From the IMG/VR virus record IMGVR_UViG_3300044638_002968, positions 1 to 51,367 of that record: DNA of 51,367 nt; one strand, 5' to 3'. The DNA comes from a virus. Its lineage: Duplodnaviria; Caudoviricetes. A program made the position numbers and the translations under genes. How positions within the stretch are numbered: the first letter of the stretch is position 1; each line of letters begins with the position of its first letter. Of this stretch, positions 16,829 through 39,000 are shown one piece after another. The notes beneath the pieces are model-generated. The model was not told the origin of the DNA. It saw nothing but the letters and a program-made list of their open reading frames with translations, and made no database searches.

Positions 16829-17022
16829 TTGCATGGCTAAAGAAAAAATGGTGCGCCAAGTTCGGCCACAACTACGAGAGCAACCCCGCCGGAGCAATTG
16901 TCTGCACCAGATGCGGCCACATTCTCGCGGAGTCTCGCTCAGAGTTCTTGCGGTCGCTGCTGCCAGAGATTCAAAAGATTTTTGGAATTGAGTACGCCAA
17001 ATACACCAAGGAGAAACCATGA
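16825..17022 (+). CDS. Hypothetical protein (CxxxGH...CxRC)
   Basis: WCAKFGHNY...CTRCG; overlapping start/stop. Confidence 0.6.
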   Translation: MIAWLKKKWCAKFGHNYESNPAGAIVCTRCGHILAESRSEFLRSLLPEIQKIFGIEYAKYTKEKP

Positions 17023-17210
17023 TTGACGTATATCCAACCCGCATAGAGGCCGTAGACGAGGACAAAAATGTCCTGTTCGTGCTTCAAATGGAAGACGCCC
17101 AGTGCTGCACCATGCACATCAAGAGCCCCATCCTGCTGAGCAATGGAAACCTAGAGCAAGTGCTGACCGCCGTGCGCCGGGCGGTGCAGATGCTTGGACT
17201 GGAGGACTGA
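17019..17210 (+). CDS. Hypothetical protein
   Basis: AAGGAG RBS; ATGA overlap. Confidence 0.6.
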   Translation: MIDVYPTRIEAVDEDKNVLFVLQMEDAQCCTMHIKSPILLSNGNLEQVLTAVRRAVQMLGLED

Positions 17211-17226
17211 GCCGCTACGCTCCGAG

Positions 17227-17252
17227 AAGCCCGCCACAGTGCGGGTTTTTTT
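17227..17252 (+). terminator. Rho-independent terminator
   Basis: AAGCCCGC-CACAGT-GCGGGTT followed by a T run. Confidence 0.8.
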
Positions 17253-17591
17253 ACGACCAAAAATTCCGTCAGCTCAAAAAAGTTTAGGCCATTGCTACGC
17301 CGGGTGACTGGGGACCCCGTATCCGAGGCATCTAGTCACCGTACCCACCACAGCCGCGCTTCTGTCGGCTCTGTAGCTGGCTGGCATCCATCGCTGGGTA
17401 GCCCGTCATAAACGACTGTTTCATCGGGAGGAGTGCTGTAGCCGTCACCGTTATCACTCATGCCTGCGCCAGTACCACAGTTAGTCTGGCACGCCCCCGT
17501 TGGTCTTGCGGAGACGATAGTCTTTACTGGGTGCCGGAGATTTCTGCCGCATAAGCTAACGCGCCCTGACGGCTGGACGTGAAACGGGCAT

Positions 17592-17715
17592 GAAAAAAGC
17601 CGTTAGTTCAGACCCCGGTGGAACCCGCATGCTGGCTTTATGGGCCAACACACGGCACCCCAAAGGGGTCGGAGTCTGAACTAACGGCTTTCACTTACTT
17701 GGAGTTCCACGTCCT
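17592..17715 (-). ncRNA. C4/CI-like structured antisense RNA
   Basis: 22-bp closing stem (17596-17617 / 17670-17691, G:U only on the minus strand), internal hairpins and a 3' U tract; internal UUCCAC is complementary to upstream GUGGAA. Confidence 0.6.
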
Positions 17716-17724
17716 AGCGGCTCC

Positions 17725-17754
17725 AGTATATCAACAAAGGGGAACAGGGTGCAA
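17725..17754 (-). promoter_or_regulatory. Sigma70 promoter for the C4-like RNA
   Basis: TTGCAC, 18-nt spacer ending in TGA, TATACT (extended -10) on the minus strand. Confidence 0.6.
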
Positions 17755-17826
17755 CAACTTTGTCCACGGAGGTCCATTAAGGTACGTCTCGGCGGGTTTA
17801 AAAGCGACACGGTGTCGTATTTGGGC

Positions 17827-17853
17827 AAAAAAACCCCACGTCTGAGGTGGGGT
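17827..17853 (-). terminator. Rho-independent terminator after the VRR-NUC gene
   Basis: Minus strand ACCCCAC-CTCAGAC-GTGGGGT followed by a T run. Confidence 0.7.
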
Positions 17854-17894
17854 AAGTTCACTCAAGGAGAAACACCATGAAACACGCCTGCAGT

Positions 17895-18179
17895 TTAGCC
17901 GCAGGTGCGCAGCAGTGCAATGGCCTCTTCCACACTGTTCACAATGTACAGGTCTGAGCCGGGCCACTCGTCGTGGAACTTCTGCTCCGCGTCCGTCAGC
18001 CGGCGTGCCGATGGCGACTTAGCCCCGTCCTTCACCTCAATCAGCAGGGTCTCCCCACGGTAGCTCACCAGCAGGTCAAACAGCCCCTCGTCGTTGATCT
18101 GCTTGACGTAAGCACCCTCGGCACGCATAGCCTTGATGATGTCCTGCTCGTTGTCGTCGCGCCGCGCAGCTCGTCTCAT
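17895..18179 (-). CDS. VRR-NUC family nuclease
   Basis: RRAARRDDNE...DLLV...LIEVKDG...LT..EQKFH..W.G...V.SVEEA. Confidence 0.85.
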   Translation of the reverse strand: MRRAARRDDNEQDIIKAMRAEGAYVKQINDEGLFDLLVSYRGETLLIEVKDGAKSPSARRLTDAEQKFHDEWPGSDLYIVNSVEEAIALLRTCG

Positions 18180-18226
18180 AGGGTTTGTCCTAACGAAAAT
18201 AATTTGAAAATATATTGTATCGGTTG

Positions 18227-18256
18227 TTGACGAACCTGATATATAGCAGATACAAT
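18227..18256 (+). promoter_or_regulatory. Sigma70 promoter for the RNA array and RAMP operon
   Basis: TTGACG(18227-18232)-18 nt-TACAAT(18251-18256) with an AT-rich UP-like region. Confidence 0.7.
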
Positions 18257-18275
18257 CGAGTCCAATCTACCTGAT

Positions 18276-18856
18276 GTATCTAGGCACGACCGGACAAGGA
18301 TCGGCACGGAGAGGCGAGGCGGGGATTGGCTGGGGCTGTTAACAGCGGGATGGCTTTTGAGAAGAAGTCATTTCGGTGGCAACACCATTTGGACTGGTCT
18401 GCCACGGTGCGGCGGGGCGGGGTCGGGCATGGAAATTCTGGGTAAAACAAGGGCTGTTTACAGCGTTGTGAGCTTTTACTAAGAGCTCACCTCGGTGGCA
18501 ACACCAATCGGACGGGTCGGGCAAGAAACGGCTAGGTTAGGAGTGGTGAGACCGGGTCTGGAATGGACCGGCAGGGGCTGTTAACAGTGGAAAGCATTTT
18601 CATAGAGTGCTTTTCGGTGGCAACACCAAACTGGCGTGGTTGTGGCTCGGAGCAGCGCGGTCAGGCTCGGTCGGCAAAGGCATGGCGAGGGCTGTTAACA
18701 GCGTTATGAATCTTTACAGAGGATTCATCTCGGTGGCAACACCAAGCGGCGCGTCGCGGAATGGCAAGGACGGGCTGGGCGCGGATGGGACGGGCTAGGG
18801 CTGATGTAGCGTTATGACACTTCAACGAGGTGTCATTTCGATGCAAAGCGTGCATC
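18276..18856 (+). ncRNA. Array of five putative guide RNAs: (NN-GGH)n tract plus three-hairpin module (VIPR-like, not a canonical CRISPR)
   Basis: Conserved modules start at 18333, 18451, 18575, 18689 and 18798 (GGGCTGTTAACAGC...CGGTGGCAACACCA; fifth diverged). In the intervening tracts 51 of 61 in-phase triplets begin with GG. Confidence 0.85.
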
Positions 18857-18876
18857 AATCAACCAAGGAAAACATC

Positions 18877-19446
18877 ATGAAAACAATCGCAGTTCAATTG
18901 ACAGGTAAGGCCCCTTTGCTCATGCACTCGGACCGTTTCGCAAACCCGCTTGACCCACTGGCAAAAGCTCACAAAGAGCTGACCAGCAAGCGCAAGAAAA
19001 CAGACGACGATCACGTTGCCATCGCACGCAGTGAGTTCATTGGTGGCTGCTACTGGCGCAAAGACGTTGGCTTCTTTTTGCCGGCACAAAACCTTGATGC
19101 CTGCCTGATCGCCGCAGCCAAGCTGCAGAAGCTCGGCGTGAAATTTAAGCAGGGCGTACAGGTCTTGGAGGATGATCTTGTGTTTGCCGGTTACGAGAAG
19201 AAAACACCCGAGCAACTGTGGAGTGACCCCGAGTACATTGACTGCCGAGGCGTCAAGGTCGGCATGGCAAAGATCATGCGCTACCGCCCTATCTTGCGCA
19301 AGTGGTCACTGAACGCAACCATCGTTGTCAACGAGGAAGTGGTCAACGTCAACGAGGTAAAGAAGGCCGTACAAGATGCCGGCGCCCTGATTGGTCTGGG
19401 TGATTATCGGCCACGCTTTGGACGCTTCAACGTGGAGTTCATCTGA
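18877..19446 (+). CDS. Stand-alone RAMP/Cas7-like RNA-binding protein (Vipr-like)
   Basis: AAGGAAA RBS; N-terminal VQLTGKAPLLMH strand, LPAQNLDACL helix, YRPIL.KW, and a C-terminal Gly-rich loop AGALIGLGDYRPRFGRFNV as in RAMP folds; directly follows the array. Confidence 0.75.
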   Translation: MKTIAVQLTGKAPLLMHSDRFANPLDPLAKAHKELTSKRKKTDDDHVAIARSEFIGGCYWRKDVGFFLPAQNLDACLIAAAKLQKLGVKFKQGVQVLEDDLVFAGYEKKTPEQLWSDPEYIDCRGVKVGMAKIMRYRPILRKWSLNATIVVNEEVVNVNEVKKAVQDAGALIGLGDYRPRFGRFNVEFI

Positions 19447-19925
19447 TGCAGGAGACAACACTGTTCCCGGCTTGGAAACAGGCCGTCAAGATTCTGATTG
19501 ATGAAGGCATAACCTACGGTAGCACCATCAGCAGAAAACGCATCGCCGAGCTTTGTAACGTCAAGCCGCCTGAAAGCATTGAGGATGTTCGTAGGCATGA
19601 TCTCGAGCTCTTGCAATGCACATCAGAGATCAAGGACGTTCTACTGACGGCGCACTGCATGCTCTTGGTGTCCGACAACAAAGGCTCGTATGTGGTCATT
19701 GAGCCGGAGTCTCAAACCCAGTACGCAGTGGACACTGGCATCAAGGCGATTAGCCGAGAGATGAAGCGGATGGCAATGTCTGTCAGCTTCACCAAGTCTG
19801 AAATGCTCACCGATTCTGGCAGGGCAAAGAACGCAGACGCACAAGCAAAGATTTCAATGCTGGCAGGAATGATGAAGCTGAAAAACAGTGAGCTTCAAAA
19901 CGCAATAGGAGGCAAAAATGACTGA
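19446..19925 (+). CDS. Hypothetical protein translationally coupled to the RAMP-like gene (possible winged helix)
   Basis: TGATG stop/start overlap; 159 aa. Confidence 0.7.
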   Translation: MQETTLFPAWKQAVKILIDEGITYGSTISRKRIAELCNVKPPESIEDVRRHDLELLQCTSEIKDVLLTAHCMLLVSDNKGSYVVIEPESQTQYAVDTGIKAISREMKRMAMSVSFTKSEMLTDSGRAKNADAQAKISMLAGMMKLKNSELQNAIGGKND

Positions 19926-20166
19926 AGACGAGCGCCACGAATCAATCGACATTCTCTTCGATGCAGTTCGTATTTCCAACAAGTTCGGACCACTGATCCT
20001 TGACGATGCAAACAACATCGGCGGCACAGCAGCCACCGCAGCAGCCGTGATGTTGACCCAGTACAGCACGGCAATGGGCATGAACCTGCACGACACAATG
20101 AGCTTGTTTATGGCCGTGTACAAGCAGACCATTGTTATGGAGCGCGAAGATGAAGCTGACCAATAA
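19918..20166 (+). CDS. Hypothetical protein
   Basis: AGGAGG RBS. Confidence 0.65.
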   Translation: MTEDERHESIDILFDAVRISNKFGPLILDDANNIGGTAATAAAVMLTQYSTAMGMNLHDTMSLFMAVYKQTIVMEREDEADQ

Positions 20167-21058
20167 CTTCGGCATGCCTGAGACGATCCTCAACGTGATC
20201 GCACGGCCACAGTACAGCAAGGGCAAAGCCAACATGTCTGTGACGGAGCTGCTCAACAGTCCACGGATTGTCCAGCTCAAGCGCAAGCATTGGAATGACC
20301 TGACAGAGGACGCAGCCGACATGGTGTGGTCCATCTTCGGCACGGCCATCCACAACATCTTGGAGCACGGCAAGGGCGATACCCACATCGTTGAAGAGCG
20401 TATTCACATTGAACTGGACGGCATGCACATCAGCGGCGCTATTGACCTGCAAGAGGTGGAGCCAGACGGCATCATCGTGTCGGACTACAAGACCGTCGGC
20501 GCGTGGTCGGTGCTTAACGAGAAGCAGGACTGGCACAACCAACTCAACAGCTACGCCTACCTTGTTGAAGCGGCCAAGAAGCTGCCCGTGATCAAGTTGC
20601 AGATCGTAGCCATCGTGCGCGACTGGAGCCGCAGGGACGCAGCAACACGCGAGGGCTACCCCAAAGCACCCATCGTGGTGATTGACATCCCTCTGTGGTC
20701 GTTTGAAGAACGCTTGGCCTATGTCCGCTCGCGCATCTCTTTGCATGGCGACGCGCTCTTCGAGATGGAGACTGACGGCGAGATGCCTGAATGCACACCC
20801 GAAGAGTGTTGGGAAAAGCCAACAATGTACGCCCTAAAGAAGGATGGCAACGTCCGGGCCAAGAGCGTCCACGAAACAAGCGAAGCAGCAGACACGGCTC
20901 TGGCTGCCGCAACAGAAAAAGCCAAGAAGGGCGAGAAGTTCCTGATCGAAGTTCGTGAGGGGGACCGCACTCGCTGTTCTAGCTTTTGCCAAGTGGCTGG
21001 CATGTGCAGCCAATATCAAAAGTATCTTTCTACCAAGCCAACTCAAGGAGAAATCTAA
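20150..21058 (+). CDS. PD-(D/E)XK (RecB/Cas4-like) exonuclease
   Basis: SVTELL, GTAIHNILE, ISGAIDL...SDYKT, QLNSYAYL, C-terminal RCSSFC...C. Confidence 0.8.
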   Translation: MKLTNNFGMPETILNVIARPQYSKGKANMSVTELLNSPRIVQLKRKHWNDLTEDAADMVWSIFGTAIHNILEHGKGDTHIVEERIHIELDGMHISGAIDLQEVEPDGIIVSDYKTVGAWSVLNEKQDWHNQLNSYAYLVEAAKKLPVIKLQIVAIVRDWSRRDAATREGYPKAPIVVIDIPLWSFEERLAYVRSRISLHGDALFEMETDGEMPECTPEECWEKPTMYALKKDGNVRAKSVHETSEAADTALAAATEKAKKGEKFLIEVREGDRTRCSSFCQVAGMCSQYQKYLSTKPTQGEI

Positions 21059-25067: not shown

Positions 25068-28000
25068 TTAGTTACGATCTTCCATCGCCTTGACCCGTTC
25101 ATTGAGCACTTGCATCCTGCGGGTGATCAGCTTTTCGACGGCTTGGATTGACTCTTTTGAAGCATCGCGCTCGAGCAGTGCCTTGCGGCGCTTGCGTAAC
25201 TCCTGAACATCCTTGAAGGTCTTGTTAGCTAGAGGTAACAAGCGGGCTTCTGGATTCTCTTTAAGAAAGTCCCCAAGCGGCTCCTTGCGCTCCCTGCGGC
25301 CCGTGACCACGTTGTTCAACTCGTTCAGCTCCTTCATGTTCTTGTAGAACTTGTTGGACTCTGCTGCTGCGCTTTTCGTCTCGCCTACAAATCGGCCATA
25401 CAGGGGTATCTTGTAAGGCGGCAGCTCCTCACCAGTGATGGTCTTGTCGATGGTGGTTGTGAGCTTCACAAGCTCCCGGCCCACACCGCCAGTTGCTTGG
25501 CCGATCAGGTATTCGATCTGCTCTGGCGTAGGACTGATGACGCCCTGCCGATCCTTGTCGCCACCACTGGCGGCGTTTAGGAACTCAGCCAAGGCCGTGG
25601 TCAGGAAGTTAGCACCCTCTCGAGCCCGTGAGTAACCCGGCGTTGGGTTCAGGGAGAACATATCCTCCTTGGAGATCGGCTTGCCTGTGAAGTCCTTGTT
25701 CTCACCAAGCGCAACCAACGGGTCAAGGATAGTTGGAGTAATGGTCTGCACCGACCAGCCAGCGTTACCTACTGGGTTGAAGGCATCAAGGAACAAGCCA
25801 GTCAAATCCGTGACGCGGCGAGCCGTATCGTCAAAGCCAGACATGGCCCACTCAGTCAAGATGCGCGAGATGCCCGGTATGACGTGAAATCCTAGAGGCA
25901 TCGGGAAGGCCACGTAATTGCCATTGCCAGTCGGGATCAGGATGTTCTTGGACCGGATGAACTCTGGCGGCTCCTCGTCATCGAATCCGGCAGCAGCCAA
26001 AAGCAAAGCCTGCATGGAGCCAAGCAGCAGACCGCCGGCCATGATCTTCTTACCCATCGGCCCCTTAAGGGTTTCGACCATGCGTGCAGAACCCTGCATA
26101 GAGGCGTTGAAGAACGCATACAGTGCGCCCATCTGCGTGGCTACGTCACCCTTGCGGTTGAAGTTCACAGTCAGGTTCTTTGCCAAGGACGCGGCCTTCT
26201 GCTTGGCCTCGCTGTCGCTGAAGCCTTCCTTTTTGAACTTCTCTTTGGCGACCTTGTAGGCCGACAGGCGGACGGCGTTTTCCAAAGAGTCGTTGTAGTC
26301 ACTAAGCCAGTCAAAGACAGCGCGAGCATCAGCCTTGGCCTTACCCTCGGTGATCTTCTCCATCTCGTTCAGCAAGGCCTCTGTGCGGTCCTGCGTGCGG
26401 CTAAAGTTGTCTCGGAAGCCTGTCTGCCCACCTTCGCTTTGAAACTCCTTCCAGAGCTTCGCCATGTCGCTGTCAACCGTCTCGCCCTTGCGGCGCTTTC
26501 TCAGGCTGGAGTAGATCGCTCCCATCGAAGGAATGACCAATTTAGCAATTTCCTTTTGCTGACCAGCCAGCTCCGTAGTGGAAAGCTGAAGTGCGCCAGC
26601 CTGAATGTCGCGCAAGAAGTTGTAAGGACCGAAGATTGGGTTGTACTGCGTGTTGACCGAAGCCATCCAGCGGGTAACCTTTGCGATCATGCCCAAGGTG
26701 GTGCCAAGGTCCTGTGCGTCAAGGTTCTTCAGCGCCGTAGCAGCGCGTGCAGAGCGAGGGTCTTTGGGGTTGAAGAGGACGTACCGCTTCTCGCCGTTGA
26801 CGCGAGTAGCCAAGACGAAATCGTTCTCGCGCAGCTTGGTGTTTACCCTGCTGATGACCTCGTTTTTCTTCGGGTCCAGCACGCGCTGCTTTGGCTCCTT
26901 CATTAAGAACTTAACTGCGTCCTCATCCAACCCCATGGCGCGAAGCTCGTCAATTGCATCTTGAGGAACCTTTTCTGCTTCAGGATTAATAGCCATCCAA
27001 AAGTCTGGGTTTGGAGCCTCCAAAGCAAGACCGTACACGGCCTGCGCAACACGGTTCTTTTCAGTCAGGGCGATGGCGTTGTTGCGAGCGGCGATCACGT
27101 TACCGATGATGTCCACCACGTTGCGCTTTGAGCCCATGGCCGAGCGGCTGAAGTCACGGCGAACGTCAAAGCCACGGCCAGTTCCAAAGCTGCCAAAGTT
27201 GTAGTCGAAGTCCATCTCCTCGCGCATCAGTGGAACGTAGTTAGGGAATGCTTTTTCCCAGCCCTCAACGGTCTCGGCCTTTTCGTAGCCAGTGTCCACC
27301 AGTAGTTTGCGCGTGCCCTTGGTGATGCCATCTACGCGCTTGGCTAACTCTTCGTACTTGGCCTTAGTGTCGGCGTCCAAATCAGCAAGGTACTTGCGTG
27401 CAGCCTCTGTGGTGACGCTAGAGCCGCCGTCTTGCATCTCAGGACGATTGGGATTGCGCTTGGCAACGAGCTTGTTGTAGTCCTCTGCATGGCGGTTGAG
27501 CAGGTACTTCTCCAACGCGCCAATGGTCACATCTTTCTTCTGCATGTCCTGCAAAAGAGGAAGCCACTCGTTATCTTGGAACAGCTTGGAAGCCTCAGCC
27601 GTGCGACCGTGGTACAGCTCCTCTTGCAGGTACGGGTTCCACCTCGTTGCAATCTCTTTGCCTGTGCTCTTGACGGCTTCTATGACGCGCTTAATGTCGA
27701 TGTTCTTGTCGAGCAGCTTGTAGATCAAGCCGTCTTGCAGTTCCATCTTGGGATCGGTCGTGATTGACCAAGTGCCAAGCACCGGCTCGCCAAAGATGTT
27801 CTGGCGGGTGGGGTTGACCTGCATGGCATTGATGTCTTGGACATCCGGATCGTAAGTTCCGATGTTGCCGGTGGCGGATTTAATTTGGGTGGGACTAAGT
27901 GCAATCCATGCAACTTGATTGTCAAATTCAGTGGAGCCCTCATTACCGCTGGCTTCAATCTTGATTCCATCCTTGCCCATAGACTTGAGCCAAGCACGAT

Positions 28001-31000
28001 AAGCCTCAACTTCTTCTGCACCAATTGGACGGCCATCATCCTTGCCGTTATGCAGCTTGCGTGCTCGGCTTGTCATCAACTGGAAAGTTGTAACCTGCGG
28101 GTTTTTGATCGACAAGTACACAGGGTAGATGACGCTTCCGGAATCACTTCCAGAGTACATCTCCGCACCACCTTCGCCGGGGTTGGTGCTGAACCAGCTC
28201 CCCACAGTGTCGATGGATGGACGGCGGAATCGAGTGGTAAACATCCGATCAAAGGCTTTAATGTCGCCCATGTCGGTGCCATCCCCCATGGGGCGAACAA
28301 AAGTTCCGTGGTAAACAACCATCGGCTCACCATTCTCATCCACCACCTTGCTGTTACCGAACCAGCGCTTGAAGGCTGGCGCGTTTGGTGCAGCCTGCAT
28401 TGCATTGATGTCAGCAGACCTGCCACCCAAAGAGTCTTGACGAATAACGGAAAAAAGTTCGCCAACATCTGAGGTGTATGTTGTCTTCACGTTGCGCGGA
28501 TCGTCAAGTCGGGCATAGGAGAAAACAAAGGCATCCTCGTCATCTGTGGCGTCCGGCTCTTCCTCTTTGCTGACGCCGAAATACTCGCCATCGACGTTGG
28601 CGATGTAGTCCCAGTCTTGCCACAGGCTGAATGAGTTACTGTCGGTGACGCGCTTAAGCTTGTCGTTAGGCTTCTTCAGTAGCTTCCTTGCTTCATACAG
28701 GTTGTATGCCTCTGGCCCACCGGGGAAGTCGCCAATCTCCGTGTTGTCACGCACGTCCTCATCCATTGCAGCAATGGCGTCGGCGTCCTTGTAAATCTGG
28801 CTTTTGTTTTTGGCAGTTACTTCTCTAGTACCTCGATCTTCGAGTCGCGCAGTTCCGCTGACGCCAGCGCGTTCTTCGCCAGCATCGGGTTGAACTGCTG
28901 CACCTTCAACAGCTCTTGCGGGCTGAATTTTGATTCCAGCAGTGCTTGTCTTTGTTGTGCCTGTTGCTCTTGCTGCTTGCGATTCATTTTGAATCCTTTC
29001 GACAATGGATTGAATTTGTGAGTATGCCTCTGGCGCGTTCGTTTGTAAATCCACAGGAGATACAAAATAATAGGCAAACGCTTGAGCGAATGTCTCTTCT
29101 TTGGGTCGCACCCTTCCCTTGAATTGCGGTGCAAACGGATACGCCATTGGGTGCTGAAGCTTATTCGCGCTACTGGTGTACCAGCGCTGCAACTCTGTGT
29201 AAGCCTTGGTCCAGCCCGCCTTCTCGGATGGCTTGCCGCCAGCCGTGTCTACCGCATGAGCAAGCTCGTGAATTAGGGTTTGCAGCTTTTCTGATTTCGA
29301 TGAATCTTTCCACTTTTTGGCAATCATCAGTGAGCCGCCTGACGACATAACCGCAACCGCATCCATGCGAGTTGAGCCCGCAGCAGTGACGTTACCAAGC
29401 ACCGATGGAGGAAGGCCAAGATCAAGCGCATCGGACGCAAGCCCAGTAATCTCTCTTACCTGCACAGGAGTTAGGCCTGCCGGCTTTAAAAGCTGAGTCT
29501 TTTTGGCCGACCTCGCCATGAAGGGGGGGATGGGGAATCTAAGCTTTAAAGCAAAATTCTCCATGGCCTCCTTGCGCTCTTTCTCTAGACTGATTGCAAC
29601 AACCTTGGGTTCGGGCTCTGGTGCTGGAGATGGCTCGGGCTCTGGCTGATTGAAGATGTCACCAGTCGTGTCCTGACGACCTTCCTCGCGGGTCAACTCA
29701 AACTGACCAGCGCCAGCTTCGGACTCTTTGCGCACCTGCTCACGCTCATCAAGCTCAGGGGCCTTGGCTTTGCGCTCTTCCTCCTCAACCACTTGATCTT
29801 TGGTCGGGCTCTCAAGCTTCAGACGCTCCTCTTCCAAGCGCTTGCGCTCCTCAAGAAGACGAGCCTCGCGTTGGTTCAGCTCTGCTTCGCGGTCAAGCTG
29901 GGCTTTGCGTTTCTCGAAGTCAGCATCTGCCTTTTCTGCTTCGCGCTGTTCAGGAGTTCTATCCGCTTCTGGGGCGGCAGGCTCCTCAATAACTTGATCA
30001 AGCTCTCTTTGTTCATCGGCGGCATATTGAAGCTCCCTGTTAATTTCATCATCAGACAGTAAATCTTGAATCTGACGCTCAATCGACTCAATATCATTTT
30101 CAACTTGCTGGATGGCAAGCTCTGTTTCGTAGGTGTAGGGCTGGTTGTTGCGCAGCTTATCGCGGACGTATTCCGCCGACTCGCTGTTCACATAGTCGGG
30201 GCTATCCGGGCGCATCTTCACAGGCAAAAAGATGTCCAGCTTTCCGCTATCAACCATGTCTTCCATGGATGCACCGGGCTGACCCTTTGGTGCCTTTAAG
30301 TTCAGGAATGGGTTCTTGCCAACTTGGCGAGCACGGCCACCTAGCTCAGACAATTCCGCGTCTCTCAGTGCACCTCTCAGCACCTGAGTTAGGCTGGTTC
30401 CAGAAGTTCGCTTTGCAAGCTTATCGCGCTCTGCAACTGCAAGTTCTTGATCTTGCGTCAGCTTTTCAACCTCAGCCTCAACCTCTGGGATCATGGGTTG
30501 GGGTGTGCCTTCCATCCTGCCAAAGTTCTTGAGCTCTTTGCCCGTAAGTGGATCGACAGGTGGTGCTTCGCGAGCTTGCAGTTCTCCAAGCTCCATGTTT
30601 CCAACAACCACGTCGCGGCTCTCAACTGGAGGCAGCTCAGCCTGTCCAAACACACTGGTCTTTGTGGCCTCTGCGTCAGCTTCACGATTTCTCTTCAGGG
30701 TCTCGGCCTCTGAGCGCAGGCGTTCGATGTCGCGCTTGAGCACTTCGCGGAGTTGCTCGTCAATCCTGCCCAGCAGTTTCTTGGTTTCGGGCGTTTGATC
30801 ACCTTGCAGAAGGCGCTGCTTTTCCCGCTGAAGGAATGCGTAGTCGTCGCCAAGGGGAATTTCACCAACAGGCTCGGCGGCTGCACGTCTTTCGGTGACG
30901 GCTCTGGCCAATGGGTCCTCACGCCCTCCAAGCAAGGGGTCCTCAGGAACGCCAAGCAAGACGTCAGGCCTTGTTCCAGAAATGGATGGCCGCTTAGTGT

Positions 31001-32225
31001 ATGGGTCGGGCGTCGGCTGTTGTAATGATTCTGGCGGGGGCACGCCCTGACCACTTGGTACAAGTGGAGGATTCTTGGCGCCCTCTTCGGCAATGCGCTT
31101 TGCTTCCTCCTCCTCCTTGAGAATCCTGCCAGCTTCGGTGCGAGCCTGCCCCCTGAGCATGTCTTGTGTTGTTGAGTATGCGGCAGCAGGAACCGATGCG
31201 GCAGAGCCACCAAGCTCACCGAGCATCTCTGCGCCAACATCCTCAAGATTAACTTTGCCATATGCAGCCAGTTGGCCGGCAGCCTCGGATGCACCGCCGC
31301 CAGCCGTTTCAATACCCACAGCGCCAGCGCCACGACCAACCTTTTGCAAGGGCGTCCTAGCCTTCAAAAGCTCATCTGCACGCTTTGCAATTTGCGCAGC
31401 ATCAGCAACATCGCCAAGCTCTTTTCGTGCAGCATCAATAGCAGAGCGCCGCGCACCAGTAGCAAATTTACCAGCACCAACAGTCATCAAGGAATCAACA
31501 GCAGCAGTGGTGACGCCCTTGGTTCTTGCTTCACTGATTGCCTGCTCAACAACCGTCTTGTCGCGTAGCAGCGCGGCAATATTTTCCTCTGTGGGTGGAA
31601 GCCCTCGCTCACTAAGCTTTTCACTGATGCGGCCAATGAACTCAGAGCCAATCTCAAGAGGAACGCCAGCAGCAAAACCGCCACCAATAGCTCCAGCAGC
31701 AGCACCAACAGCCGCGCCACCGGGGCCAGCCAGAGAGCCAGCCAAAGCGCCGCCCTTGCCGCCAGCGATCATGCCTGCGATCTGAGGGGCCATGTTTGCT
31801 GCGCTCGAGGCGGTCAGGTAAACAGCGCCCTTGGGGTTGGTAATGACTTGCTTGCCAAATTCCAGCAAGAAGCCAGCAAAGGGACCAATGCTTTCAGTGA
31901 ATCCCTTGGCCTTTTCAAACGCTTCAGCTTCATCCTTGAAAGCGGTCTGAGCCTCAACCAATTCCTTGGGCTGTACGCTCGGCTTCATAGAAAGCTGCTC
32001 AGACAGAACCTTGGCCTTGTCCTCGCCAACATTGCCAGCAATGACAGACGGGGAGACCTGAGCGGCGCCAATGGCACGCTTGCCACCTTCGACAAGCAAG
32101 CTACCTACGTTGGAGAAGAAGCCCTTGTCCTTGACTGGTTTTTCATCGAACAGATCGGCGCTAAAGTCGCGTCCACCTTTACCCTCGGGGCTAAACAGCT
32201 CCGAGCTGAGATCACGTCCAGCCAT
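25068..32225 (-). CDS. Giant polyvalent internal virion (ejection) protein: zincin-like HExxH domain, ADP-ribosyltransferase-like domain, LPD38-like C-terminus
   Basis: 2385 aa; LIHELAHAVD...EETFAQAF; FKRWFGNSKVVDENGEPMVVYHGT...WFST...YPVYLSIKNP...QIKSATGNIGTYD; NLTVNFNRKG...LYAFFNAS. Confidence 0.8.
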   Translation of the reverse strand: MAGRDLSSELFSPEGKGGRDFSADLFDEKPVKDKGFFSNVGSLLVEGGKRAIGAAQVSPSVIAGNVGEDKAKVLSEQLSMKPSVQPKELVEAQTAFKDEAEAFEKAKGFTESIGPFAGFLLEFGKQVITNPKGAVYLTASSAANMAPQIAGMIAGGKGGALAGSLAGPGGAAVGAAAGAIGGGFAAGVPLEIGSEFIGRISEKLSERGLPPTEENIAALLRDKTVVEQAISEARTKGVTTAAVDSLMTVGAGKFATGARRSAIDAARKELGDVADAAQIAKRADELLKARTPLQKVGRGAGAVGIETAGGGASEAAGQLAAYGKVNLEDVGAEMLGELGGSAASVPAAAYSTTQDMLRGQARTEAGRILKEEEEAKRIAEEGAKNPPLVPSGQGVPPPESLQQPTPDPYTKRPSISGTRPDVLLGVPEDPLLGGREDPLARAVTERRAAAEPVGEIPLGDDYAFLQREKQRLLQGDQTPETKKLLGRIDEQLREVLKRDIERLRSEAETLKRNREADAEATKTSVFGQAELPPVESRDVVVGNMELGELQAREAPPVDPLTGKELKNFGRMEGTPQPMIPEVEAEVEKLTQDQELAVAERDKLAKRTSGTSLTQVLRGALRDAELSELGGRARQVGKNPFLNLKAPKGQPGASMEDMVDSGKLDIFLPVKMRPDSPDYVNSESAEYVRDKLRNNQPYTYETELAIQQVENDIESIERQIQDLLSDDEINRELQYAADEQRELDQVIEEPAAPEADRTPEQREAEKADADFEKRKAQLDREAELNQREARLLEERKRLEEERLKLESPTKDQVVEEEERKAKAPELDEREQVRKESEAGAGQFELTREEGRQDTTGDIFNQPEPEPSPAPEPEPKVVAISLEKERKEAMENFALKLRFPIPPFMARSAKKTQLLKPAGLTPVQVREITGLASDALDLGLPPSVLGNVTAAGSTRMDAVAVMSSGGSLMIAKKWKDSSKSEKLQTLIHELAHAVDTAGGKPSEKAGWTKAYTELQRWYTSSANKLQHPMAYPFAPQFKGRVRPKEETFAQAFAYYFVSPVDLQTNAPEAYSQIQSIVERIQNESQAARATGTTKTSTAGIKIQPARAVEGAAVQPDAGEERAGVSGTARLEDRGTREVTAKNKSQIYKDADAIAAMDEDVRDNTEIGDFPGGPEAYNLYEARKLLKKPNDKLKRVTDSNSFSLWQDWDYIANVDGEYFGVSKEEEPDATDDEDAFVFSYARLDDPRNVKTTYTSDVGELFSVIRQDSLGGRSADINAMQAAPNAPAFKRWFGNSKVVDENGEPMVVYHGTFVRPMGDGTDMGDIKAFDRMFTTRFRRPSIDTVGSWFSTNPGEGGAEMYSGSDSGSVIYPVYLSIKNPQVTTFQLMTSRARKLHNGKDDGRPIGAEEVEAYRAWLKSMGKDGIKIEASGNEGSTEFDNQVAWIALSPTQIKSATGNIGTYDPDVQDINAMQVNPTRQNIFGEPVLGTWSITTDPKMELQDGLIYKLLDKNIDIKRVIEAVKSTGKEIATRWNPYLQEELYHGRTAEASKLFQDNEWLPLLQDMQKKDVTIGALEKYLLNRHAEDYNKLVAKRNPNRPEMQDGGSSVTTEAARKYLADLDADTKAKYEELAKRVDGITKGTRKLLVDTGYEKAETVEGWEKAFPNYVPLMREEMDFDYNFGSFGTGRGFDVRRDFSRSAMGSKRNVVDIIGNVIAARNNAIALTEKNRVAQAVYGLALEAPNPDFWMAINPEAEKVPQDAIDELRAMGLDEDAVKFLMKEPKQRVLDPKKNEVISRVNTKLRENDFVLATRVNGEKRYVLFNPKDPRSARAATALKNLDAQDLGTTLGMIAKVTRWMASVNTQYNPIFGPYNFLRDIQAGALQLSTTELAGQQKEIAKLVIPSMGAIYSSLRKRRKGETVDSDMAKLWKEFQSEGGQTGFRDNFSRTQDRTEALLNEMEKITEGKAKADARAVFDWLSDYNDSLENAVRLSAYKVAKEKFKKEGFSDSEAKQKAASLAKNLTVNFNRKGDVATQMGALYAFFNASMQGSARMVETLKGPMGKKIMAGGLLLGSMQALLLAAAGFDDEEPPEFIRSKNILIPTGNGNYVAFPMPLGFHVIPGISRILTEWAMSGFDDTARRVTDLTGLFLDAFNPVGNAGWSVQTITPTILDPLVALGENKDFTGKPISKEDMFSLNPTPGYSRAREGANFLTTALAEFLNAASGGDKDRQGVISPTPEQIEYLIGQATGGVGRELVKLTTTIDKTITGEELPPYKIPLYGRFVGETKSAAAESNKFYKNMKELNELNNVVTGRRERKEPLGDFLKENPEARLLPLANKTFKDVQELRKRRKALLERDASKESIQAVEKLITRRMQVLNERVKAMEDRN

Positions 32226-36027: not shown

Positions 36028-39000
36028 TTAGCGTAAGAGGTCTAGTAGTTCATCCACCGATAAATCCCCCGCCAGTAGGTCGTCAATGTACCCACCTGCG
36101 GCGATTTTAGTCGTTGGCTGCTGATTTTGCTGCGGTTTTTTAGCTTGGAAGCCGCTGAAGAACCCGGTGTTGAGCGCGGCAGATACGTCAAATCCGGGTC
36201 CAGCTTCGACCAGTTGAGCGGGTTGCTGTGGAGCCATACCTGCACGCTGCATAGCCTCAAGCTGTTGCATGATGCCTTGGGCGCTCGTCTGAGCACGGGT
36301 CGCAGTCGTTCGGATGTTTGCCTGACGAGCTTGCTCTGCGGCAGCTTGCGCGGCGGCCTGCTGGTCGGCCTGACGTTGAGCTTCCGCAGCAGCCAAGTCC
36401 TGTTGACGGCGCTGCTCGTTGGCCTGAACCTGACCATACAAGCCGGTGGCCGCCCACGGGGATTGCTGCGGCGCAGTCCAGTCCGTTTTTACCCCGCCAA
36501 CCACCTGAGTCAGGAAGTCGATGTCAGCCTGCGTGATCTGCTTGTCGCCAGTCACGTCATAAGCCAAATCCATGGAGCGCTGACCGCTCAGCATCTGCGT
36601 CAAGGCATCAATGTCGGACTGGTTCGCCGTGCGGCCCTGAGTGCCAATCAGGCCAGCCATTTCTTGGTTCTTGGCATTGACCTCTGCAAACGCCTGCTGA
36701 GTGGCTTGCTGGTACGTCTGGCCCTGCTGCATCAGTTCGTTAATGCGTGCATCCACCTCAACGCCAAGGTCGGTGATCTGCTGCTGGGTCTGCGTCTTAG
36801 CGGTTTCGATTGCCTCGTTTAAATCAATCCCTTGCTGCTGAAGATTGGTGGCTATTGCCTTTTGCTCCACAGTCAGTGCGTCAAACTTGGCCTGCACGTC
36901 CGTAGCAAGCTCGCCAATCTGAGTTTCCGTCTGCCCCTGCGCGGCAGCAATGGCATCTGTAAGCGTTGTTCCCTGCGCCGTCAGCGCGTCAGCCAAAGCC
37001 TTTTGTTCGACCGTAAGAGCTTCGTACTGAGCGTTTGTCGCAGCCTCAAGGTCTGAAATTTGTGTTGCTGTTGACTCTTGCGCAGCGGCTATTGCATCAG
37101 CCAGTGTGGTGCCTTGATCCGTCAGCGCGTCAGCCAAAGCCTTCTGCTCAGTGGTTAGGGCGTCGTACTGCTCCTTCATCTGAGTCTCAAGGCCGGTGAT
37201 ACCAGATTCAAGCTCGGTCTTCAGGTTGGCTTCGGTTGTGCCCAGTTTGGTCAACAAGTCTGCGGCACTTGTCTGCTGGTCCGCAGCCACGGATTCGATA
37301 GCGGCTTTGAGCGCGGCGTCACCCTCAAGACCCGCAGATTTGGCATTGGCAATTGCGGTCTCAAGTGCAGTTTTAGTGTTGGCAATTTCTGTTGCTGTGG
37401 CCGTCTGAGATGCTGCAATGTCGGAAGCAAACTGCGTCTTGAGGTCGGCAGCGGTTGTGCCCAATTGCGTAAGCAAGGCGGCTTGGTCAACGCCCATCTT
37501 TTCTGACAGGCTGTTTAACCCTGCTTTCAAAGCCGCATCGCCCTCAAGGCCAATGTCTTTGGCTGCTTGGATTTCTTCTGACAAGTTGTTTTGCAGATCA
37601 GTTATTTGAGCCTGCGTTTTGGCCTGCTCAGACACCACGGAATCAACACCAGACTGCAGCTTGGATACATCCCCGCCAAGCGCCGTGATCTGTGAATTGA
37701 TGTCATTTTTGATTGCATCAAGAACCGCAGGATCAACACCGGCCTGAGCCCCCAACTGCTCAATCTGCTCGATAATGGAGTTGTACTTGGCAGAGTCAAG
37801 GTTCTCTGTGGCCTTGCCTGTTAAACCAGTTTCGTCGTACTGACCAACCAGCTTCAAGATGTCAGCTTGAGTTGGTTTATTTAAACCAAGCTCAGCATAG
37901 GCGTCTTTGGCCTCTTGCTCCGTTACGGTGCGAGGATCAACATACGCGCCAATCTCGCCTCGTACGGCATCTTGGTTGATGTTTTCGCCCTGCCGAATAA
38001 ATGACGTGATGTCAGCTTCGGTTGGTTTGTAGCCTTCAATTGACTTGAAAAAATCCTCGGCCTCAGACCTTGTAATTTGCCTTGGGTCAACGTACTGCTG
38101 AACTTTTTCTTTTGCGGCGGCTTCGGAAATTTGACCGGCAAAAGACATGGCCTCGGCGTCCGTCATGTTTGTGTAGCCAAGGTCGCGCATCATCTGCTGC
38201 GCTTCTTCTTTTGTGACCACTCGCTCTTGCGCATACGGCAAAGCAAGTTCCGAAATTTGTTGCGGCGACATCTCTCCCGCGCCACTCACTATGGATGCAA
38301 TTTCTTGCGGCGTGAAGTCGTTCATTCCATTTTCACGGAATGTCTGCGCGGTGTAAAAATACTCGTCTGGTGTGATGTCGGGGTTGGTTAAAAACGTGGA
38401 GTGATACCCAATGGCGTCACCAAGGTTTACACCCGCGCCGTAGCTAAAACTCTTGTCAATTGTTTTTGGGTCAAATGTTTTTTCACCATCAATAATTTGC
38501 TTGTATGTGACAGGCTTTCCGTCGTAATCTTTTGCAACGACTTGACTCAAAGCATCGGCGGTAAGCACCCCGGCAGCTATGCCTTTTTGCGCAAAGCCTT
38601 CCATGATGCCTGCGTTGAGCCACTCATCTTCGCTCTTAATGCTTCCGTACTTACCAATCTGAGCGCTCATGTTTTGCAAGGAGCCTTCAAAGTTACCAAG
38701 GAACCACTCTTTTGTTGAGTTGGTTGCAATAACTTTGCCAAATGAGTCTTTTGCAAGATCACCCATAAAGGATTTGATCAGCGCTCTATCTCCAACGTAG
38801 GACGTCAGCACGCCAACAGCCATGCCCTCCAAACCAGATTTAACAGCAAGGGCTTCGATTTGGGACGCTGGTACGCCCTGTTTTGTTAGGTATTCTTTGA
38901 CCTCTCCATAGTTTCCGCCAAACGACTCAGCACCATTCAAGGCCACGTTTGTGCCAACAGCAGCGGACAATCCGACTGACTTGCCAATCACATTCTTAAA

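What the first reader, a model, noticed from the sequence alone, without database searches (positions are those of the whole stretch)
18333..18856. Three-hairpin RNA module with covariation closes every unit
Seen: hairpin 1 is GCTGTTAACAGC (variants GCTGTTTACAGC, GCTGTTAACAGT, GCTGATGTAGC). Hairpin 2 differs in sequence in all five copies yet always forms a 9-10-bp stem with a U:G near the loop: ATGGCTTTT/AGAAGTCAT, GTGAGCTTTT/AAGAGCTCAC, AAAGCATTTT/AGAGTGCTTT, ATGAATCTT/AGGATTCAT, ATGACACTT/AGGTGTCAT. Hairpin 3 is GGTG-GCAA-CACC (GNRA loop), replaced in unit 5 by GATGCA-AAGCG-TGCATC. Compensatory changes and G:U pairs indicate selection on plus-strand RNA structure. Inference: a processing signal, 3' cap or filament terminator; sequence divergence of the stems would also limit recombinational collapse of the array.
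Basis: seen in the sequence. Interest (0 to 1): 0.75.

Follow-up and report, generated by a model that had tools for sequence, protein, structure and literature searches.

The report
RNase III-type tails of VIPR guides
This repeated RNA module is the tail of five guide RNAs in a phage VIPR gene-silencing locus, and its central stem matches the recognition pattern of the bacterial enzyme RNase III, so the host enzyme likely cuts the array into single guides, a step the VIPR papers searched here do not describe.

Summary
The module is real. It is the 3' tail of five VIPR guide RNAs (vrRNAs) upstream of vipr (E 1.3e-45 to the solved SUSP1 Vipr) and a vap1-family gene in a phage.

Hairpin 2 covaries strongly in homologues and hairpin 1 partly. 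Hairpin 3 is missing from about 40% of homologous tails.

Hairpin 2 is a fixed 12-bp ladder. Its middle pairs vary freely, but U-A and U·G are fixed at positions 12 and 11 (163 and 166 of 177 stems). G-C is modal at position 6 and almost never occurs at position 5 (absent in 176 of 177). This is the distal-plus-proximal-box pattern and spacing of E. coli RNase III sites, and it recurs in a hold-out set.

Each tail can also fold as one long rod. After a predicted cut at the hairpin 2/3 junction, hairpins 1 and 3 would cap the upstream guide and the next RNA; the last cut would free the vipr mRNA. Cleavage is inferred: no RNA data were available, and the rod pairs show no significant covariation. 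The tail differs from the published SUSP1 pseudoknot. Verdict: new variant of a known system.

The parts
18227..18256 (+). sigma-70-like promoter upstream of the array (predicted)
   Evidence: 10 of 12 consensus match; a similar -35/-10 stretch precedes the array in several homologous loci (read by eye)
18283..18332 (+). guide tract 1 (GGYNN pentamers)
18333..18386 (+). tail 1: P1 18335-18346, P2 18347-18374, P3 18375-18386; predicted RNase III cuts 18348^18349 and 18374^18375
18391..18450 (+). guide tract 2
18451..18505 (+). tail 2: P1 18453-18464, P2 18465-18493, P3 18494-18505; predicted cuts 18466^18467 and 18493^18494
18510..18574 (+). guide tract 3
18575..18627 (+). tail 3: P1 18577-18588, P2 18589-18615, P3 18616-18627; predicted cuts 18590^18591 and 18615^18616
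18629..18688 (+). guide tract 4 (first three pentamers degenerate)
18689..18743 (+). tail 4: P1 18691-18702, P2 18703-18731, P3 18732-18743; predicted cuts 18704^18705 and 18731^18732
18748..18797 (+). guide tract 5
18798..18856 (+). terminal-type tail 5: P1 18800-18810 (3-nt loop), P2 18811-18839, 6-bp P3 18840-18856 that would head the vipr mRNA; predicted cuts 18812^18813 and 18839^18840
   Evidence: this 3-nt-loop type is the last tail in 69 of 120 loci and occurs in 0 of 315 inner tails
18877..19446 (+). vipr gene (189 aa RAMP-like protein), preceded by an AAGGA ribosome-binding-like site
   Evidence: phmmer E 1.3e-45 over residues 1-188 to PDB 36pp SUSP1 Vipr; phrog_4652, as for the SUSP1-family protein
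19446..19925 (+). vap1-family gene (159 aa)
   Evidence: phrog_5926, E 1.4e-15; the same family as the gene after vipr in Felixounavirus tootiki and Pseudomonas phage Medea1; direct BLASTP to the tootiki protein E 7e-5

Best explanation
The module is the conserved tail of each guide RNA in a phage VIPR locus, and its central stem likely serves as a host RNase III site that would cut the single array transcript into separate guides and free the vipr-vap mRNA. Shown: vipr and vap1-family genes, five GGYNN tracts each followed in register by the tail, a covarying 12-bp stem P2, and the RNase III distal-box (U-A, U.G) and proximal-box (G-C, then A-U/U-A) pattern at the published spacing. Inferred steps: (1) one promoter at 18227-18256 makes a precursor of about 0.6 kb of array plus the two genes; (2) Vipr coats the GGYNN tracts and stops at the purine-containing tail start; (3) the tail folds as P2 extended into a rod of roughly 24 bp, because the 3' strand of P1 pairs with the 5' strand of P3 and the 5' strand of P1 pairs with a second NAGC/CACC stretch; (4) RNase III cuts the 3' strand exactly at the P2|P3 junction, and possibly the 5' strand two bases into P2; (5) the strands refold into P1, capping the 3' end of the upstream guide, and P3, capping the 5' end of the next guide or, after the last tail, of the vipr mRNA.
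For: System identity. Covariation: in a tree-simulated null over 217 rows, six P2 pairs (1, 7-10, 13) and the inner P1 pair beat every null value. On a sequence-only MAFFT alignment of 23 tails, 11 of 12 P2 pairs change on both sides (0 of 500 shuffles reach it) while U.G at position 11 never varies (23 of 23). Box pattern in 177 distinct long stems: U-A at 12 in 163, U.G at 11 in 166, G-C at 6 in 109, A-U/U-A at 5 in 101, no G-C/C-G at 5 in 176; registers shifted by -2, -1 and +1 give 30, 1 and 6 for the first feature and 31, 1 and 0 for the second. All five window tails have all four features. Control: 10 of 2,749 other stems have all four and 94 the distal pair set, against 53 and 154 of 178 tails. 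Hold-out from 15 genome loci, anchored without using pairing: U.G 20 of 22, U-A 18 of 22, A-U/U-A at position 5 in 17 of 22. Register from papers: proximal position 2 is pair 9:30 of the 34-nt minimal substrate and the distal box is UA/UG with a stringent UG requirement (PMC1540722); 22 bp between distal-box ends (PMC3867540); in vivo preference for G-C between the cuts, A-U at D/D' and G at J/J' (PMC6212723). The lower half fits too: A-U at the mirror position 5 in 120 of 120 and C-G at mirror position 6 in 103 of 120 distinct lower halves. The five T7 early-region hairpins printed show the same ladder by eye. Rod: the lower-energy fold in 252 of 275 isolated tails; a second P1-complementary 4-mer sits at the rod register in 76 of 88 positions, against 17-50 at other offsets. 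After a double cut P1+P3 beat the residual duplex in 121 of 131 P3-type tails.
Against: No cleavage or RNA-end data were examined. The match to RNase III rules was noticed after the fact, and homologous tails share ancestry, so the counts are not independent events. In the discovery set the 3' anchor was chosen by best pairing among motif candidates (168 of 274 tails had more than one). Proximal positions 4 and 3 fit less well: 57 and 83 of 177, and position 3 fits in 1 of 5 window tails. Position 5 is an A.C mismatch in 56 of 180 stems. 37 of 435 tails in 26 loci lack the Y-G pair at position 11, and five loci have only such tails. Tails lacking the upper box are not significantly enriched for a lower U.G (p 0.32). 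Rod pairs show no significant covariation (E 8.9 or more; 173 of 500 shuffles reach the both-side count). In the naked whole precursor the rod has probability 0.00-0.20 because the G-rich guides compete, although P2 stays at 0.95 or more. For tails without P3 the hairpins beat the duplex in only 30 of 107. PMC3867540 states that the distal box has no conserved sequence across substrates or species. The host is unknown.
Confidence: 0.63

Rival explanations
1. The tail is a static compact cap: three hairpins with loop 1 kissing loop 3 (or pairing with the bases after P2), a functional analogue of the SUSP1 pseudoknot. It stops the Vipr filament and blocks exonucleases. Guides are separated by nonspecific cutting and trimming, and all three hairpins stay on the upstream guide.
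For: P1 and P3 are perfectly paired and covary. Loop 1 bases 1-2 complement the loop 3 region in 14 of 22 positions among 11 distinct combinations, against 7.6 expected (p 0.002); these pairs serve a kissing loop as well as a rod. A pseudoknot caps the SUSP1 vrRNA in cryo-EM (10.64898/2026.04.26.720927).
Against: It does not explain the fixed 12-bp length, the invariant U.G/U-A inside an otherwise freely covarying stem, or the exclusion of G-C at position 5. It does not explain the extra P1-complementary 4-mer at the rod register, the absence of P3 in a large class of tails, or a special stronger P3 only in front of vipr.
Confidence: 0.2
2. The P2 pattern is a protein binding site and not a cut site: RNase III binds without cutting, or Vap1, Vipr or another double-stranded-RNA-binding protein reads the wobble.
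For: G-C at proximal position 4 suppresses cleavage but not binding (PMC1540722), and the lower half has C-G at that mirror position in the window's tails and in 147 of 282 tails. Mismatches flank the predicted 5'-strand cut in tails 2, 4 and 5.
Against: Internal loops usually limit cutting to one strand rather than abolish it (PMC1540722, PMC3867540). The SUSP1-family locus has the same Vap1 family but not this tail. A head-to-tail array with one predicted promoter needs some processing.
Confidence: 0.09
3. The tail is a self-cleaving ribozyme or is cut by Vipr itself, as Cas6 cuts CRISPR repeats.
For: Other VIPR types interleave guides with hammerhead ribozymes (10.64898/2026.04.26.720920). 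Vipr is a RAMP-fold protein.
Against: No Rfam family reaches a meaningful score over 17000-19000 (best E 0.2). There is no conserved unpaired catalytic core; the conserved bases lie in stems. The SUSP1 clade uses a related Vipr with an unrelated tail.
Confidence: 0.05
4. Each tail is a transcription terminator or DNA element, and the units are transcribed separately.
For: Hairpins at unit ends; two weak promoter-like hexamer pairs lie inside the array (9 of 12 matches).
Against: No terminator-like call in the array; no U-tract follows P3; the last tail runs straight into the vipr ribosome-binding site; G-U strongly exceeds A-C, which points to RNA.
Confidence: 0.03

Closest known systems
VIPR type II (SUSP1 and Pseudomonas fulva prophage systems; 10.64898/2026.04.26.720920)
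   Same: vipr plus vap1-family gene, an array of vrRNAs with about 10-13 GGYNN pentamers each followed by a conserved structured 3' tail, phage-encoded.
   Different: The published tail model is a ~40-nt pseudoknot of the SUSP1 clade. This tail is about 55 nt with P1, a 12-bp P2 and usually P3. A model of it finds no match in the SUSP1-family locus L051 but matches the Pseudomonas phage and prophage-like loci L043, L046, L047, L050 and L052. The text gives no processing route for type II arrays. GGA makes up 14 of 44 GG pentamers here.
Phage T7 early RNase III sites and the minimal substrate uR1.1 (PMC1540722)
   Same: A hairpin with U-A/U.G (or C-G) at positions 12/11, G-C at 6 and A-U at 5; mismatches near the cut; placed upstream of a ribosome-binding site.
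   Different: Here the site is repeated between guide RNAs, and it is flanked by two short alternative hairpins that could swap strands after cutting. Cleavage is shown for T7 and only predicted here.
RNase III maturation of type II CRISPR crRNA with tracrRNA (recalled, no call)
   Same: A host RNase III would separate guide RNAs from an array precursor.
   Different: The duplex here is intramolecular, needs no trans-acting RNA, and the repeat keeps structure rather than sequence.
Hammerhead-interspersed and staggered VIPR arrays (same preprint, figs S18-S19, legends only)
   Same: Routes for releasing single vrRNAs from an array.
   Different: No ribozyme match here, and the units are separated by a full tail rather than overlapping.

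Membership tests
VIPR system | Vipr RAMP-like protein with G-loop | tested here: met
   E 1.3e-45 to PDB 36pp; H17, R137, D176, Y177 and R178 match the residues quoted for P. fulva Vipr
VIPR system | vrRNA tracts of about 9-16 GGY/NN pentamers | tested here: met
   Five tracts of 10-13 pentamers; 44 start with GG, 30 of them GGY and 14 GGA
VIPR system | conserved structured 3' tail after each tract | tested here: met
VIPR system | targets follow the 1-nt skip rule | tested here: inconclusive
   One exact 20-base pattern per guide was scanned in viral contigs: 0 hits for four guides. Guide 1 hit one AT-rich phage gene in two identical records, probably chance. No close match in held loci.
VIPR system | vrRNA expression, Vipr binding, silencing | not testable with these tools
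   No RNA run was listed
VIPR type II | vap1 accessory gene | tested here: met
   phrog_5926 is shared with the gene after vipr in a SUSP1-family phage
VIPR type II | placement in the type II clade of the authors' tree | not tested
   The authors' tree and data files were not visible; identity is about 40% to SUSP1-family Vipr
SUSP1-clade pseudoknot tail | ~40-nt hairpin whose loop pairs with a downstream strand after an A-rich linker | tested here: not met
   The two L051 tails read by eye have that form; the window's tails do not, and model R1 has no match in L051
E. coli-type RNase III substrate | distal box U-A/U.G at -12/-11 | tested here: met
   5 of 5 window tails; 163 and 166 of 177 stems; 18 and 20 of 22 in the hold-out
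E. coli-type RNase III substrate | proximal box G-C, W-W, A-U, W-W at -6 to -3 | tested here: inconclusive
   Window 5, 5, 4 and 1 of 5; homologues 109, 101, 57 and 83 of 177; inhibitory G-C at -5 absent in 176 of 177
E. coli-type RNase III substrate | at least 11 bp of helix above the cut, ideally about 22 bp overall | tested here: met
   12-bp P2 ladder; the rod extension is predicted only
E. coli-type RNase III substrate | RNase III-dependent cleavage | not testable with these tools
   needs an experiment
Known Rfam RNA family (ribozyme, riboswitch, sRNA) | score at the gathering threshold | tested here: not met
   Best matches E 0.2-0.3, far below threshold and outside the array

The most novel reading that the evidence does not exclude
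A widespread proteobacterial-phage branch of VIPR matures its guides with a self-capping RNase III switch. Each tail folds as a rod that host RNase III cuts; the two products then swap strands into hairpins that protect the 3' end of one guide and the 5' end of the next. The last copy is specialised to release and stabilise the vipr-vap mRNA, which couples guide supply to effector expression.
Probability: 0.42. Interest if true: 0.72.

Novelty: new variant of a known kind. Interest (0 to 1): 0.55.

Why it matters
How type II VIPR arrays become single guides is not explained in the VIPR preprints read here. If the inference holds, it names the enzyme and predicts cut sites to the base, so one rnc-null experiment tests it. 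It gives a design rule for multiplexed VIPR guide arrays: keep a 12-bp stem with U.G/U-A at the top and vary the middle. It implies that host RNase III activity gates this phage-versus-phage weapon. It also shows an ancestral CRISPR-like system using a host RNase III through a purely cis signal. If the inference fails, the finding remains a second, well-covarying vrRNA tail family usable for finding more VIPR guides.

Tried and rejected
Tandem Repeats Finder did not report the array. Rfam gave nothing meaningful and Pfam has no family for Vipr.

RNA evidence: no RNA holder was listed for 17800-20200, so no reads were laid.

Target search: one exact gapped pattern per guide in viral contigs gave no credible target. 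The single hit for guide 1 lies in a 32% GC gene, with the skipped base at the third codon position but no extension upstream; it is treated as probable chance.

Compensation test: tails without the upper distal box are not significantly enriched for a lower U.G (p 0.32). Covariation of the rod pairs was not significant.

Two slips in my own analysis: one search used a P2 structure misregistered by one column and was repeated correctly; the automatic ladder print for T7 sites gave no output, so those ladders were read by eye from the printed record sequence.

Terminator reading rejected. No further tail copies elsewhere in the window at E below 0.1. Earlier-findings look-ups returned nothing. 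No structure or complex prediction was run, because the sequence match to a solved Vipr was decisive.

Full report
Setting. The window is a 51,367-base virus record, estimated 79% complete, with terminase, portal, helicase, ERF and SSB genes. The module sits in a 600-base intergenic array directly upstream of two genes. The first (18877-19446) matches the solved SUSP1 Vipr at E 1.3e-45. The second (19446-19925) falls in phrog_5926, the same family as the gene after vipr in a SUSP1-family phage. The sequence between the repeats consists of tracts of 10-13 pentamers; 44 start with GG, of which 30 are GGY. This is a VIPR locus as defined in 10.64898/2026.04.26.720920, and the finding is the vrRNA 3' tail. 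That paper already reports an invariable structured tail and models it as a pseudoknot for the SUSP1 clade only.

Observation. The three hairpins are present as described, and each tail folds better than shuffles. Hairpin 2 pairs 9 of 9 with its own arm at positions 4-12 in all five copies, and 4-8 of 9 with another copy's arm.

Homologue set. I fetched 50 viral and 80 metagenome loci plus one named phage locus and parsed them together with the window. This gave 442 tails in 120 of 132 sequences, 282 of them distinct. 102 candidate positions were rejected, 22 of them for poor P2 pairing. Seven to eight visibly misparsed rows were dropped before later counts. The tail reads: lead GG(R), strand a, loop 1, strand a', stem P2, strand b, then either a hairpin P3 or a short UU.

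Covariation. On 217 anchored rows, a G-test with average-product correction was set against 25 alignments simulated on the tree (my own approximation of R-scape). P2 pairs 1, 7, 8, 9, 10 and 13 and the inner P1 pair ranked above all null values; the outer P1 pair had E 0.24. On a MAFFT alignment of four window tails and 19 genome-derived tails, 11 of 12 P2 pairs changed on both sides, with 0 of 500 shuffles reaching that; P1 showed no both-side change in that set. P3 partners change together (GGTG/CACC 76, GATG/CATC 43, GATA/TATC 10), though the partner was picked by best match. 118 of 275 tails belong to a class that mostly has no P3.

The RNase III pattern. Counted from its base, P2 has freely varying but paired positions 7-10 and nearly fixed positions 11 (U.G, 166 of 177) and 12 (U-A, 163 of 177). 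G-C is modal at position 6 (109). Position 5 is A-U/U-A in 101 and G-C/C-G in 1 of 177. PMC1540722 defines an E. coli RNase III site as a distal box UA/UG with a stringent UG requirement, plus a proximal box GC, W-W, AU, W-W in which G-C at the second position blocks binding. Its numbering puts that second position at -5 from the 3'-strand cut. The 22 bp between distal-box ends given in PMC3867540 puts the distal box at -12/-11. PMC6212723 adds in vivo preferences for G-C between the cuts, A-U at D/D' and G at J/J'. Laid on the tail, these rules fit in one register only, and that register puts the 3'-strand cut exactly at the P2|P3 junction. The mirror positions below the cut also fit in part: A-U in 120 of 120 and C-G in 103 of 120 distinct lower halves. 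All five window tails carry the four main features; 10 of 2,749 control stems do. In a hold-out of 25 genome loci (tails parsed in 19), anchored without using pairing, 22 new long stems from 15 loci gave U.G in 20, U-A in 18 and A-U/U-A at position 5 in 17; two of the 22 look mis-anchored. The five T7 early-region hairpins from NC_001604 show the same ladder by eye, with the same C-G alternatives. The register predicts cuts after T7 bases 890 and 5887, which agrees with the coordinates I recall for R0.3 and R1.1 (recalled; the record held here does not annotate them). Against: proximal positions 4 and 3 fit only 57 and 83 of 177; 56 of 180 stems have A.C at position 5; 37 of 435 tails lack the wobble position, and five loci have only such tails.

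Two folds. Isolated tails prefer a rod in 252 of 275 cases. In the rod, a' pairs with b across a constant G.R mismatch, and a plus the first two loop bases pair with the P3 loop and 3' strand. In the 22 tails parsed from the genome loci a second a-complementary 4-mer lies at exactly the rod register (76 of 88 positions; other offsets 17-50). Loop 1 complements the loop 3 region more than permuted combinations do (14 of 22 against 7.6). These pairs are compatible but do not covary significantly, and the loop-loop pairs would also fit a kissing-loop cap. In the naked precursor the guides compete with both folds, while P2 persists. After a double cut, separate P1 and P3 hairpins are favoured over the leftover duplex in 121 of 131 P3-type tails and 4 of 5 window tails. 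A special terminal tail with a 3-nt loop 1 and a 6-bp P3 is last in 69 of 120 loci and never internal (0 of 315), as expected if P3 heads the vipr mRNA.

Mechanism. Shown: locus identity, tail architecture, P2 covariation and the box pattern. Inferred: one precursor; Vipr coating of the tracts, ending at the tail start, where the third base is a purine in 274 of 274 tails (GGG in 195) while GGG is 14 of 1,471 inside tracts (the SUSP1 structure has a pyrimidine-only pocket); RNase III cutting; and refolding into end caps. I put RNase III cutting at about 0.65 and the full strand-swap switch at about 0.4.

Comparison. It works like, and is a member of, VIPR, most likely type II; tree placement was not tested. 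It is not the SUSP1 pseudoknot tail: a covariance model finds no match in the SUSP1-family locus, but matches Pseudomonas phage and prophage-like loci at 46-58% Vipr identity. One genome locus whose Vipr agrees with 8 of 9 residues quoted for P. fulva Vipr carries this tail with the box pattern. The characterised P. fulva system therefore probably has it too, and the authors may hold unpublished end maps. Genome-embedded relatives are mostly from Beta- and Gammaproteobacteria; the window's host is unknown.

Literature seen. 10.64898/2026.04.26.720920: parts 1-4 and 6 of 6, plus term searches of the PMC copy and its supplement text. There 'RNase' has 0 hits and 'ribonuclease' occurs only in a reference; figures and data files were not visible and may bear on tail structure and RNA ends. 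10.64898/2026.04.26.720927: passages. 10.64898/2026.10.15.759431: part 1 of 8 and passages. 10.64898/2026.10.21.760802: passages. PMC1540722: passages and part 3 of 7. PMC6212723, PMC3867540 and PMC11780869: passages. Searches for a VIPR-RNase III link found none in this library; subscription journals and bioRxiv supplements are not covered.

Verdict. A real, covarying RNA element of a known system, of a tail type not modelled in the papers read, with a specific and directly testable processing hypothesis. New variant of a known kind; interest 0.55.

Noticed in passing
window 18283-18797 and homologous tracts: GGA is frequent at the conserved triplet: 14 of 44 GG pentamers in the window and 233 of 1,471 in homologues, although the SUSP1 structure paper describes a pocket that excludes purines. 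The pocket residues differ here (C76, A80, I172, L174), so this clade may tolerate A.
   Followed up: partly
window guides 1, 2 and 4 versus related loci: Near-identical guides are followed by different P2 stems in related phages, and unit order differs, which suggests shuffling by recombination at the invariant P1 and P3 sequences.
   Followed up: partly
L137-L152 (genome loci): In many proteobacterial genome loci the same tails lie downstream of vap instead of upstream of vipr.
   Followed up: no
L039, L094, L110, L114, L123 and some tails of L040, L041, L124, L126: Short-P2 tails (20-26 nt) without the upper U.G; their lower rod half is well paired. They may use another register or another processing route.
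   Followed up: partly
window 18227-18282: The promoter-like site and the leader just after it recur in several close homologues, divergent from a small nuclease-like gene at 17895-18179 (phrog_93, E 3e-5).
   Followed up: no
L049, L153, L154, L157: Vipr homologues (40-49% identity) with no tail of this family found nearby; they may use another tail or have lost their guides.
   Followed up: no
window 25068-32225 and 36028-41616: Two very large genes (2,385 and 1,862 aa). The first matches only unknown-function PHROGs in its C-terminal part; the second matches none.
   Followed up: no
window 17216-17252 and 17826-17855: Short inverted repeats beside T or A runs, probably terminators, in the intergenic stretch upstream of the locus (read by eye).
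   Followed up: no
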